Positions 15,256 to 29,322 of a stretch of 64,000 bases of DNA are shown here, piece by piece. The translations under genes were made by a program, and so were the position numbers. Below the pieces are notes generated by a model. The model was not told the DNA's origin. It saw only the letters and a program-made list of their open reading frames with translations, and made no database searches. Origin of the DNA: Octopus vulgaris (lineage: Eukaryota); assembly GCA_951406725.2 (NCBI GenBank), contig OX597828.1, positions 53,072,001 to 53,136,000 of the forward strand, given 5' to 3'. Each line of letters opens with the position of its first letter. Position 1 is the stretch's first letter.

Positions 15256-16829
15256 TATTATTATTATTATTATTATTATCAAACCATTATGAAAGATCAA
15301 AGTGTTGCAGAAAAAGTTAAAAGCGAGCTCTAGAGAATTCCTTCACATTCAGTCAGGATCAGTACAGAATATTTTCTTTCATATTAAAGTTGAAAATAAG
15401 AATAAGGAATAAAGCGAAAAAAAAAAAGAAGCATATTTTTCTTTCATTATATCAATATCGGAAGTGAAGTGAGAAGCATGATGGACATAAAAAATGGGGC
15501 GGAACTACTTGATCGACAAAACGTTACTTAGACTACGGCTGAATTCTGAAGATACTTTTAGTCACGAATTACAAAGAATTAAATACACCATTTAATCTAA
15601 ATATATATATATATTCTATGTTGGATAGATGAGAATATACGCTAGAGGATTATAAGATAAAACAGAATTAGAAACTTATCCAATTGATAAGATTTCCCTA
15701 ATCATCTATTAAGAGGAGAAGAACGAAAAGAAAATGAATAAAAAGGATGAGAAGGAGGAAGAAGTGCAGCTATAAAAGAAAGCTATTCGCAACAGATCTA
15801 ATACACTTAAGAAAGTGATACGAACAGCAAATGTAATTTATCACTTTCAAAGATGGAGACACGGCTGTTGTAAACTTTCATGACGCAAAGGTCAAACTTG
15901 CACCAAATTTTCCCAGTAGACTGACTATGCATCTACATCAACGAGGAAGTATTTATCTGTCAAAATAGAAAACATTTTGCCTTCAGCTATAGTCGTTGAC
16001 GTGGCCGTCGTCGTCGTCGTGATCATCATCAGCCTCATCATGTCAGTGTTCATCATCGATATCTTCAGTGTCGCTGCTATCACCTTCCCCTTTATCTATG
16101 TCATTAATTGGTACTGGGATAACAGCCACAAATTTGAAACCATTACATTTAGAGAACCACCGCTCAAGTGATTGAAATAAGACTCTGCGAATTCTTGTCA
16201 CATACAAACAATATTTCTATTCTTATCAACAAGATACGCATATAAAACCGAGAAGAGAACTCAAATATCTCACTTAACAGGTTGCCAAGAAACCAACCGA
16301 AATACCTGTTACAGTACGAGGTCAAAATCCCCAGTGGCTACCCCAGTCTCAGGCAAGCTGCAGGGCGCTAGATGATAAGCAATGTTTCATGCGGCCCCAT
16401 TTCTCAAAAACCTTTTCCCATACCAAGTCCAGCTAGTTGCTATTTTTTAACTACAAAAAGTCAGCCATTCTCGAGCCGAAGCATGACCAATGTTGTTGCA
16501 GCTCTGACCATTTCTAATACTTGTAGCAGTGCTAGTATGCGTCATCTTTTCTAAAACATGATTGTCCAGTGACCCTCGGGGTTTTTTGATTTCGTGGTAC
16601 GCTAGATTTAAAACAAAAATTACTGCGGTACTTCATATAGAAATTTTAAAAGCTGTTTTAAAATTTGAAACTATTTTATAACAGATTTAAAATAAACTTT
16701 ACGGAGATGTACTTGCATAGCGAGTGACTTGATCTGAGATCGTGTGCTGGAACGAAAACAATTGCAGTGTTGAAGGTGTTTATAAGCCATTTAAGAAACA
16801 CTTAGATTCACTTCAACATTTAAATTTAA

Positions 16830-16880
16830 TTTGTCAAAATATTTTCGTCGCTTTTAGACCGCGACCTGTTCACTGACAAA
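16830..16880 (-). ncRNA. Identical hammerhead-like motif on the opposite strand
   Basis: Exact reverse complement of 16909-16959. Confidence 0.6.
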
Positions 16881-16908
16881 ACTTGCATCGTAAGATGCAG
16901 CACGCAGT

Positions 16909-16959
16909 TTTGTCAGTGAACAGGTCGCGGTCTAAAAGCGACGAAAATATTTTGACAAA
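16909..16959 (+). ncRNA. Minimal type I hammerhead ribozyme-like motif with a G3-C8 swapped core
   Basis: Stem I UUUGUCA/UGACAAA, core GUGAACA, bulged G, stem II GUCGC/GCGAC, GAA, palindromic stem III AAUAUU, H17=U. Confidence 0.6.
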
Positions 16960-17689
16960 TTAAATCTAAATGTGAATCTAGCGGTTTTTGTGTGTTTCTT
17001 AAATGGCTTATAAACACCTTCCACGCTGCAATTATTAAAATAAACTATTGCATAGTTTGTATTAATCATATTATTGTACAACAAAATTCTGAGTATTGAG
17101 TTTTCTTCAACATGCTGAAGAACTTGTATGGATTTTTTAAAGGCTTAAATTATACTTTTTAAAACCCAGAATGCCCCCTGAAAATCTTTTAAGACGCACT
17201 AATAATGAACCTTCGCGGTAGAGGGTAATTTTAGAGAGATTTGATTGCTATTTCTAGCGAGTCGAGGAACCATGGAGAGGCACTCTCTTTGCTTCCGGTG
17301 ATGTTAGTAGAGGCACAGTAGGGTGACATATTACCAGCTGTAAACAACAACACCACGATTAGCTGATTTAAGGTCTCATGAACATTTCATAAGCGCCGGT
17401 GAACACGCGCGTGCGCACAGATACACGCATACTGATAAATAGGTGGGTAAACAAATGGTGTAAATAGAAAGACGAGGGTGAAAGAAACGGGTGAAAGTAA
17501 CAAGAAGAATGAGGTAGACAGGTGTTTAGAACCATTCATGGTGAGTATCAATGCGAGTGTGAGAGGGAAGAGACAAATGATAGCATGTGTGCAGACACAT
17601 CAAGTGTATAATTATATTCTTTTATTCTTTTACTTGTTTCAGTCATTTGACTGTGACCATGCTGGAGCACCGCCTTCATATATATATAG

Positions 17690-25103: not shown

Positions 25104-25444
25104 GTTATTTGGTACAAAATGTGCCAAATGTGGTCTTGGGTTTAGTCGAAACGATTTTGTAATGCGTGCCAAAAGTAAAATCTACCATATTGACTGTTTT
25201 CGGTGCGTTGCATGCAGCCGTCAGCTGATTCCAGGAGATGAGTTTGCACTGAGGGAAGACGGACTTTTCTGCAAGTCGGATCACGATGTTGTCGAGAGAG
25301 CATCTTCCGTGAACCAAAACGGAAATTCAGGTGGTGTAACAGATGCCAATGGCAACACAACTACAAGCAACAATAACTTGCATTCCAATGGGAGTTCTAA
25401 CAGTAGCGGAGAAGGACGAATGGGTCAGGGACTACAGATGGCTG
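25104..25444 (+). CDS. Isl1: Islet LIM-homeodomain gene, exon encoding the second LIM domain and linker (equivalent to vertebrate ISL1 exon 3)
   Basis: Polypyrimidine tract ttttctttttctctctttttcag with acceptor AG at 25102-25103. Reads (R)[67 protein letters not shown]...LQMA, the Islet LIM2 zinc-finger signature. Donor gtaaga at 25445 (phase 1). Confidence 0.96.
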
Positions 25445-29035: not shown

Positions 29036-29322
29036 GACGAGCCGAACAGATGTCAAGCAACAGAACTGGTGGAATGCGACCACATGTTCACAAGACAGAG
29101 CAGAAAACCACGCGCGTTCGAACAGTCCTAAACGAAAAGCAACTCCACACACTGCGCACCTGTTACAATGCCAACCCACGACCGGACGCTCTAATGAAGG
29201 AACAACTAGTCGAAATGACTGGCCTCAGTCCCCGGGTTATACGCGTTTGGTTCCAGAACAAGCGATGTAAAGATAAAAAAAAGAATTTACTAATGAAGCA
29301 AATGCAACAACAACAGGAAAAG
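29036..29322 (+). CDS. Isl1: Islet gene, homeodomain exon
   Basis: Acceptor tacag (AG 29034-29035), phase 1 compatible with the previous exon. Reads [96 protein letters not shown], the diagnostic Islet homeodomain. Donor gtgact at 29323 (phase 0). The exact 5' boundary could instead be 29042. Confidence 0.95.

What the first reader, a model, noticed from the sequence alone, without database searches (positions are those of the whole stretch)
16824..16965. Twin hammerhead-like ribozymes with a natural G3-C8 core swap, locked in a perfect 60-bp hairpin
Seen: 16909-16959 folds as a minimal type I hammerhead. It has stem I UUUGUCA/UGACAAA (7 bp), core GUGAACA instead of CUGANGA, one bulged purine, stem II GUCGC/GCGAC, GAA, a self-complementary stem III AAUAUU and a UUU triplet. 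The two deviations from the core consensus fall exactly at positions 3 and 8, changing C-G to G-C. An identical copy lies on the minus strand (16830-16880), and the 22-nt spacer has its own UGCAUC-GUAA-GAUGCA GNRA hairpin. Established: positions 3 and 8 form a Watson-Crick tertiary pair, and the engineered swap rescues activity. Penelope-like elements carry minimal hammerheads with palindromic stem III that act as dimers, and they often insert as inverted pLTRs. Inference: this is a Penelope/retrozyme-type family using a covariant core that CUGANGA-based searches would miss. In the presumed Islet intron the sense copy would be sequestered by its antisense arm, which also creates long dsRNA.
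Basis: partly seen in the sequence, partly recalled or inferred. Interest (0 to 1): 0.85.

Follow-up and report, generated by a model that had tools for sequence, protein, structure and literature searches.

The report
Retrotransposon hammerhead with flipped core pair
This hairpin is a short, head-to-head insertion of the end repeat of a Penelope-like jumping gene, and that repeat carries, in about 7,000 exact copies, a likely self-cutting hammerhead RNA whose central C3-G8 base pair is flipped to G3-C8, a form that searches for the usual core would miss.

Summary
Observation confirmed, but the unit is larger: a 336-bp insertion (16699-17034) between 12-bp target duplications. It holds two head-to-head copies of the pseudo-LTR of a Penelope-like element; one copy keeps a 58-nt tail. 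The parent encodes RT plus C-terminal GIY-YIG with a Zn-finger linker (Neptune/Nematis type), and one copy is a full pLTR-ORF-pLTR. G3-C8 is the family state: 6,944 exact core matches; 0 of 18 double changes are C3-G8. Two sister families in the same genome carry a hammerhead at the same place with C3-G8 and U3-A8, with compensatory stems, while the flanks are no more alike than shuffles. So the swap is a real covariation. Cleavage is untested. The 'twin' and the 'GNRA hairpin' are by-products of insertion, and in the hairpin the ribozyme would be locked. Copies end about 22 nt upstream of the core, not at the cut site. Natural U3-A8 and engineered G3-C8 are published; I found no natural G3-C8, but the largest survey (Lunse 2017) was not held. 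This scan earlier noted a G3:C8 motif behind a PLE in another genome (unchecked). Verdict: new variant of a known kind.

The parts
16687..16698 (+). Left target-site duplication (12 bp)
   Evidence: Identical to 17035-17046
16699..16756 (-). 58-nt tail, on one arm only; 3' end of the sense (minus) arm; equals codons ~12-30 of the parent ORF
   Evidence: Fixed end in family copies; continues into the ORF in L167 and L101
16757..16889 (-). Left arm: pLTR copy, sense on the minus strand, with small deletions; parent ATG at 16790 (minus)
16830..16880 (-). Minimal type I hammerhead, G3-C8 core (copy 1)
16884..16899 (.).
16893..17033 (+). Right arm: pLTR copy without tail; begins at the family's 5'-end hot spot (-22 in the L106 reference numbering); parent ATG at 17003
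16909..16959 (+). Minimal type I hammerhead, G3-C8 core (copy 2); G3=16916, C8=16921; predicted cut after 16952
17035..17046 (+). Right target-site duplication (12 bp)

Best explanation
The window holds a 336-bp, target-duplicated, head-to-head insertion of the pseudo-LTR of an RT/GIY-YIG Penelope-like retrotransposon, and that pLTR carries a minimal type I hammerhead fold with a family-fixed G3-C8 core pair that is likely a working, weak, dimer- or protein-assisted ribozyme. Shown: the parent element, the pLTR-ORF-pLTR layout, the family-wide G3-C8, and C3-G8 and U3-A8 at the same place in two sister families with compensatory stems. Inferred mechanism of insertion: an RNA whose 5' end lies about 22 nt upstream of the core is reverse-transcribed from two internal start sites about 60 nt apart, primed on the two nicked target strands. 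Both cDNAs run to that 5' end and are joined head to head, which gives a palindrome with a tail on one arm, a variable centre and an 11-16-bp duplication. Inferred for the ribozyme: G3-C8 rebuilds the 3-8 Watson-Crick tertiary pair. Cleavage after U17 would need two hammerheads pairing through the palindromic stem III (for example the two pLTRs 4.3 kb apart in a read-through RNA) or the element's protein. In this palindromic copy the antisense arm would be transcribed first on the + strand and would lock the ribozyme.
For: Parent: 1002-aa ORF with RT motifs and GIY-YIG above the Pfam cut-off; 29 of the 30 loci returned by the endonuclease search hold the pLTR within 1.5 kb; L101 is pLTR-ORF-pLTR and L167 runs from pLTR into the ATG. 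Retro-insertion: 10 of 25 copies with both ends show an 11-16-bp duplication in non-repetitive flank, most others lie in (TA)n; 3' ends of 70 arms fall in two classes (30 at +115-130, 39 at +175-187, 1 other); inversion spacing varies from 1 bp to 2.4 kb. This matches the two RT start sites, both-strand extension and tail reported for PAc (PMC11167929). Core: 6,944 exact G3-C8 matches, control 0; 39 of 45 arms from copies picked by a downstream motif are G3-C8. Covariation: three Watson-Crick states at 3-8, and changed but paired positions in stems I and II, across families A, B, C and five outside relatives. Flanks are no more alike than shuffles, while the A/B and A/C hammerheads are (1 and 3 of 200 shuffles reach them). 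In 76 metagenome relatives, 12 of 14 unfiltered descriptor hits have a Watson-Crick 3-8 pair, all on the ORF strand. The engineered C3G/G8C double mutant partly restores cleavage in a PLE hammerhead.
Against: No cleavage data. Copies do not end at the predicted cut: only 21 loci have an inversion centre within 16 nt of it, 2 exactly. The young, intact sister family B carries A9C in 37 of 38 copies held, and relative L183 also has C9, so cores in this clade can drift in active elements. PAc hammerhead mutants still insert in vitro. If both bases changed by drift alone, a Watson-Crick outcome has a 1-in-3 chance (my arithmetic). B/C hammerhead identity is not above shuffles (49 of 200). The predicted AAUAUU duplex alone is only -0.2 kcal/mol. 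The tree is a quick, unfinished search. The -22 end could also be an RT stop rather than an RNA start.
Confidence: 0.72

Rival explanations
1. The motif is a true hammerhead descendant in a PLE pLTR but no longer cleaves. The fold is kept as a structural, promoter or protein-binding element, and G3-C8 is drift or serves a DNA-level signal near the transcription start.
For: Copies end at about -22, not at the cut site. A9C is nearly fixed in active family B. Hammerhead mutants do not block PAc insertion, and no RNA-seq read ends were found at the PAc cut site (PMC11167929). The core lies about 23-35 nt downstream of the putative RNA start, where core-promoter elements sit (recalled, not tested).
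Against: U4 G5 A6, G12 A13 A14, A15.1-U16.1, G10.1-C11.1 and a Watson-Crick 3-8 pair are all kept across families about 50% apart in protein whose flanks are unalignable. A DNA-level signal would not need three different Watson-Crick states at 3-8.
Confidence: 0.22
2. The element is a non-autonomous DNA element (MITE, foldback or Helentron-type HINE), and the hammerhead look is chance.
For: Long inverted arms, an asymmetric end with a small stem-loop, and a (TA)n target bias.
Against: The same sequence is the pLTR and ORF start of an RT/GIY-YIG element. Duplication lengths vary, centres vary, and truncations are graded from 100 bp to 4 kb. The shuffle control gave 0 hits at this score.
Confidence: 0.02
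3. The twin arrangement is itself functional: a host-used dsRNA or ribozyme switch in the Islet intron.
For: A 60-bp perfect hairpin, likely intronic on the + strand of an Islet-type gene.
Against: Tight palindromes of this kind are common in the family (7 pairs with about 20-nt spacing among the first 100 matches). The centre is unconserved, and this copy has private deletions. Arm identity is expected from insertion or later conversion.
Confidence: 0.04

Closest known systems
Minimal type I hammerheads of metazoan PLE pLTRs (Cervera & de la Pena 2014, PMC4209133)
   Same: Sits in the pLTR; one nucleotide inserted between 9 and 10.1; G10.1-C11.1; palindromic 15.2-16.2 region; mostly solitary truncated copies; opposite-strand pairs reported; U3-A8 variant family in Schistosoma Cercyon.
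   Different: Core pair is G3-C8 (their consensus CUGANGAH; only U3-A8 is described in the parts read). The inserted base is G rather than H. Stem I is 7 bp.
PAc / Poseidon from Anolis (Frangieh et al. 2024, PMC11167929)
   Same: Hammerhead near the ORF start; tail inside the first ORF codons between two RT start sites; AT-rich targets; engineered C3G/G8C partly active.
   Different: There G3-C8 is an engineered rescue; here it is the natural family state. The tail here is about 60 nt. The ORF starts about 50 nt after the cut site, not inside stem II. This element has a CxxxCxxC linker, which Penelope/Poseidon lack.
Neptune/Nematis-type EN+ PLEs (Craig et al. 2021, PMC8557442)
   Same: C-terminal GIY-YIG, CX2-5CxxC linker, (TA)n bias, 5' truncation, inverted 5' copy, one-sided tail.
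   Different: Clade not placed against reference sequences. The DKG motif reads DKS, and an RW motif is present near the N-terminal KF motif (described for Hydra as RWK).
Natural U3-A8 core covariants (Perreault et al. 2011, PMC3088659)
   Same: Compensatory change at the 3-8 tertiary pair.
   Different: Here the pair is reversed (purine at 3, pyrimidine at 8), which needs two transversions from C-G.
Non-LTR retrozymes (bioRxiv 10.64898/2026.07.22.740005)
   Same: Short, non-coding, hammerhead-bearing, PLE-derived repeats.
   Different: Retrozymes are head-to-tail tandem arrays. These are dispersed single or head-to-head copies identical to the pLTR of a coding parent.

Membership tests
EN+ Penelope-like element | Single ORF with RT and GIY-YIG endonuclease | tested here: met
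   P0002: GIY-YIG 25.5 bits over cut-off 22.6. RT motifs read by eye. RVT_1 does not hit P0002 itself but hits 5 of 36 aligned relatives.
EN+ Penelope-like element | Pseudo-LTRs from partial tandems, including the ORF start | tested here: met
   L101 pLTR-ORF-pLTR; L167 and L169 pLTR running into the ORF
EN+ Penelope-like element | Inverted 5'-truncated copy and one-sided tail | tested here: met
   Window copy; L062, L099 and others
Neptune/Nematis clade | CX2-5CxxC linker before a C-terminal EN | tested here: met
   CxxxCxxC in P0002; definition
Neptune/Nematis clade | Phylogenetic placement with reference clade members | not tested
   No reference PLE proteins were in hand; the tree has only unnamed relatives
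Type I minimal hammerhead | Three-way junction with stems I and II and a palindromic or short stem III | tested here: met
   Stem pair probabilities 0.7-1.0 in the pLTR context; compensatory changes
Type I minimal hammerhead | Literal core C3UGANG8A | tested here: not met
   G3 and C8; Rfam gives no hammerhead hit
Type I minimal hammerhead | Watson-Crick 3-8 pair plus U4 G5 A6 A9 G12 A13 A14, A15.1-U16.1, H17 | tested here: met
   All present in family A
Type I minimal hammerhead | Self-cleavage after position 17 | not testable with these tools
   Needs an in vitro assay
Non-LTR retrozyme | Head-to-tail tandem array of short hammerhead units | tested here: not met
   No short tandem array among the first 100 listed matches; copies are single, inverted, or ORF-linked. 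Not a genome-wide exclusion.
MITE / DNA transposon | Fixed-length TSD, fixed symmetric ends, no RT parent | tested here: not met
   TSD 11-16 bp, asymmetric ends, RT parent

The most novel reading that the evidence does not exclude
G3-C8 is an active natural hammerhead core, not described in the literature I could read, and PLE hammerheads sample all Watson-Crick states at 3-8. Thousands of ribozymes, and perhaps some PLE families scored as lacking a hammerhead, would then be invisible to CUGANGA descriptors. In addition, the copy ends record a twin-primed mechanism in which a short RNA starting about 22 nt upstream of an uncut hammerhead is copied from two sites at once, so the pLTR spreads like a SINE.
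Probability: 0.45. Interest if true: 0.68.

Novelty: new variant of a known kind. Interest (0 to 1): 0.5.

Why it matters
If it cleaves, this is a natural, high-copy case of the reversed 3-8 tertiary pair, known so far (in the papers I could read) only from engineering. Three sister retrotransposon families in one genome, with G-C, C-G and U-A, give a ready-made natural series for measuring what the pair costs. It also exposes a blind spot of Rfam and CUGANGA descriptors. The family's thousands of copy ends bear on the open question of what PLE hammerheads are for: they stop upstream of the ribozyme, not at its cut, and they show two discrete 3' ends, in line with the in vitro PAc result. The window copy itself is an ordinary dead insertion.

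Tried and rejected
MITE, Helentron-type, DIRS-type or Crypton-type readings (recalled as leads): rejected once the RT/GIY-YIG parent was found. Rfam scan: no hammerhead. Same-strand pair on C2 (L061): not a pLTR-ORF-pLTR, no PLE ORF between the copies. C3-G8 revertants inside family A: 0 of 18 double changes; the 7 A3-U8 copies are compatible with two independent transitions and were not tested further. Cleavage footprint in copy ends: not found. Splicing at the CTAAC...YAG signal at -22: 0 genomic copies with the one spliced junction I guessed, against 815 unspliced; other donors were not tested. RNA evidence: no RNA holder listed; the four runs laid are contigs of guessed RNA, show no splice joint and no pile-up of ends, and cannot show starts, so they count neither way. 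Viral contigs: no relative. PDB: no match. Islet LIM1 exon: not found in the window. DNA around the 118 protein homologues could not be seen, so their hammerheads are unknown. The unbiased copy sample is 45 loci from the first 50 of 100 listed hits on C1, of 4,572 matches in all. Literature: 8 searches and supplement searches (one Cervera file not searchable, figures not held) found no natural G3-C8. Lunse et al. 2017 (PMC5785218) and Przybilski & Hammann 2007 (PMC1986816) were not held, and the first could contain it.

Full report
Observation. The 60-bp arms are perfect, the 142-mer folds at -106.9 kcal/mol, and the 51-mer alone forms stems I and II. My relaxed type I descriptor (free 3, 8, 9) finds only these two sites in the window; 30 locally shuffled windows gave no hit of equal score. 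Rfam does not see it.

The real unit. The inverted repeat extends to about 130 bp per arm, and a 58-nt extension lies on the left only. The whole, 16699-17034, sits between 12-bp direct repeats. The genome (2.8 Gb) gave 2,265 candidates, of which 40 were scored. In 29 aligned copies the tail end is fixed, the other end and the centre vary, and variants are shared by both arms of a copy. Of 25 copies with both ends found, 10 show a clear 11-16-bp duplication; most others lie in (TA)n.

The parent. Inverted pairs occur at spacings from 1 bp to 2.4 kb. The widest, L062, has a GIY-YIG ORF end about 1 kb upstream of the hammerhead on the same strand. An endonuclease search gave 7,874 candidates, 150 scored; 29 of the 30 loci returned hold the repeat within 1.5 kb. 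L099 encodes 1,002 aa with RT motifs, a CxxxCxxC linker and GIY-YIG. L101 is a full pLTR-ORF-pLTR with hammerheads 4.26 kb apart, and in L167 the repeat and tail run into the ORF, so the tail is codons ~12-30. These are the defining traits of EN+ Penelope-like elements, Neptune/Nematis type by the linker (PMC8557442, passages). The sister family B ORF is nearly identical to a protein that its source names as from Octopus vulgaris.

G3-C8 is the family state. There are 6,944 exact matches to stem I + core + start of stem II, control 0. Among copies chosen by a downstream motif, 39 of 45 arms that cover the core are G3-C8. Of 18 copies with both positions changed, none is C3-G8, 7 are A3-U8 and 1 is U3-A8.

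Covariation. A scan of 180 loci (788 kb) found the same hammerhead in two sister families about 50-54% identical in protein. Family B has C3-G8 (38 of 38 copies held; 37 with A9C, 1 older copy fully canonical). Family C has U3-A8 (6 of 6). In each, the motif lies 50-120 nt before a homologous ORF start. Stem I pairs 2 and 3 read C-G/U-A, C-G/C-G and U-A/C-G in A, B and C; stem II pairs 3 and 4 read C-G/G-C, C-G/A-U and U-A/G-C. The 60-nt flanks are no more alike than shuffles. Hammerhead identity exceeds shuffles for A/B and A/C (1 and 3 of 200) but not for B/C (49 of 200). In 76 metagenome relatives (314 kb), the unfiltered descriptor gave 14 hits, all on the ORF strand: 10 C3-G8, 2 U3-A8, 2 weak non-paired, 0 G3-C8; two pairs of these loci are near duplicates, and seven of the hits are in distant relatives. 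A quick, unfinished tree puts A apart from B+C; C3-G8 is the likely ancestral state, by prevalence only.

How the palindrome arose (inferred). In 45 copies picked without regard to their 5' part, the 3' ends of 70 arms form two classes about 60 nt apart. The 5' ends pile up: 20 of the 23 copies that reach -19 stop between -19 and -28, and 3 go on. L119 shows a piece beginning exactly at that point joined to ORF-internal sequence. Inversions at the predicted cut are rare (21 loci nearby, 2 exact). Frangieh et al. (PMC11167929, main text up to Methods read) report two internal RT start sites bounding the tail, extension on both target strands, a predicted protein dimer, protein-assisted hammerhead cleavage, partial rescue by C3G/G8C, and uncut RNA as the main template. 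The simplest reading is twin priming of an uncut RNA that starts at about -22, with the two cDNAs joined head to head. The -22 point resembles both an initiator and a 3' splice site (recalled consensus); one guessed spliced junction had 0 copies against 815 unspliced, and the RNA data were uninformative.

Does it cleave? Not shown. For: all other core positions are kept, the 3-8 pair is Watson-Crick in three states, and engineered G3-C8 is partly active. U17 avoids a G3-C17 mispair; Kalweit & Hammann note that G3-C8 is less active with C17 than with G17 (PMC3884650, passage, 'data not shown'). Against: A9C in active family B, no cut footprint, a weak stem III duplex, and low activity of PLE minimal hammerheads generally (PMC4209133, parts 1-2 of 4). 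In the window copy, a + strand Islet-type transcript (exons at about 25120 and 29119-29300; intronic position likely) would make the antisense arm first and lock the ribozyme.

Novelty. Natural U3-A8 is published (PMC3088659 section 8; PMC4209133). Eight searches and three supplement searches found G3-C8 only as an engineered variant. Passages of PMC6765202, PMC6155905, PMC13725137 and bioRxiv 2026.07.22.740005 (also part 1 of 5) gave no mention, and PMC11014351 had no hit for the terms. Lunse 2017, the largest survey of PLE hammerhead variants, was not held, and figures were not visible, so novelty is provisional. An earlier unchecked note of this scan (e1-7353390) reports a G3:C8 motif with an extra base behind a PLE RT in another genome.

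Verdict. A real, family-wide covariant hammerhead core in the pLTR of a Penelope-like element; the twin hairpin is an ordinary insertion product. New variant of a known kind; interest 0.5.

Noticed in passing
L162:2636-2690 (+) and other family B loci: A young sister PLE family with many intact ~1,312-aa ORFs carries a hammerhead with A9C in 37 of 38 copies held; an older copy (L176) has canonical A9. Relative L183 has U3-A8 with C9.
   Followed up: partly
L177:~6890 (+), L179, L180, L013: Third sister PLE family with a U3-A8 hammerhead and a 4-nt palindromic stem III; a GTGAGT donor-like motif lies between the hammerhead and the ATG.
   Followed up: partly
window 16893; L106:7290-7312: Sharp 5'-end hot spot of family A copies about 22 nt upstream of the core, at a site resembling both an initiator and a branch-point/3' splice site.
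   Followed up: partly
L007, minus strand, position 2091: A fully canonical minimal type I hammerhead (C3-G8, palindromic ACGT) of an unrelated repeat family.
   Followed up: no
window ~25120-25290 and ~29119-29300 (+): Islet-type LIM2 and homeodomain exons; the LIM1 exon was not found in the window.
   Followed up: partly
L001-L030 alignment: Private variants are often mirrored in both arms of one copy, which points to copying at insertion or to later conversion between arms.
   Followed up: no
L061:5173-5644: A 472-bp near-perfect palindrome carrying the family tail next to it: an inverted insertion of a longer ORF-start piece.
   Followed up: no
L106:6354-7310: The ~1-kb 3' UTR of the element is largely (TACA)n-type microsatellite, so the element spreads microsatellites.
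   Followed up: no
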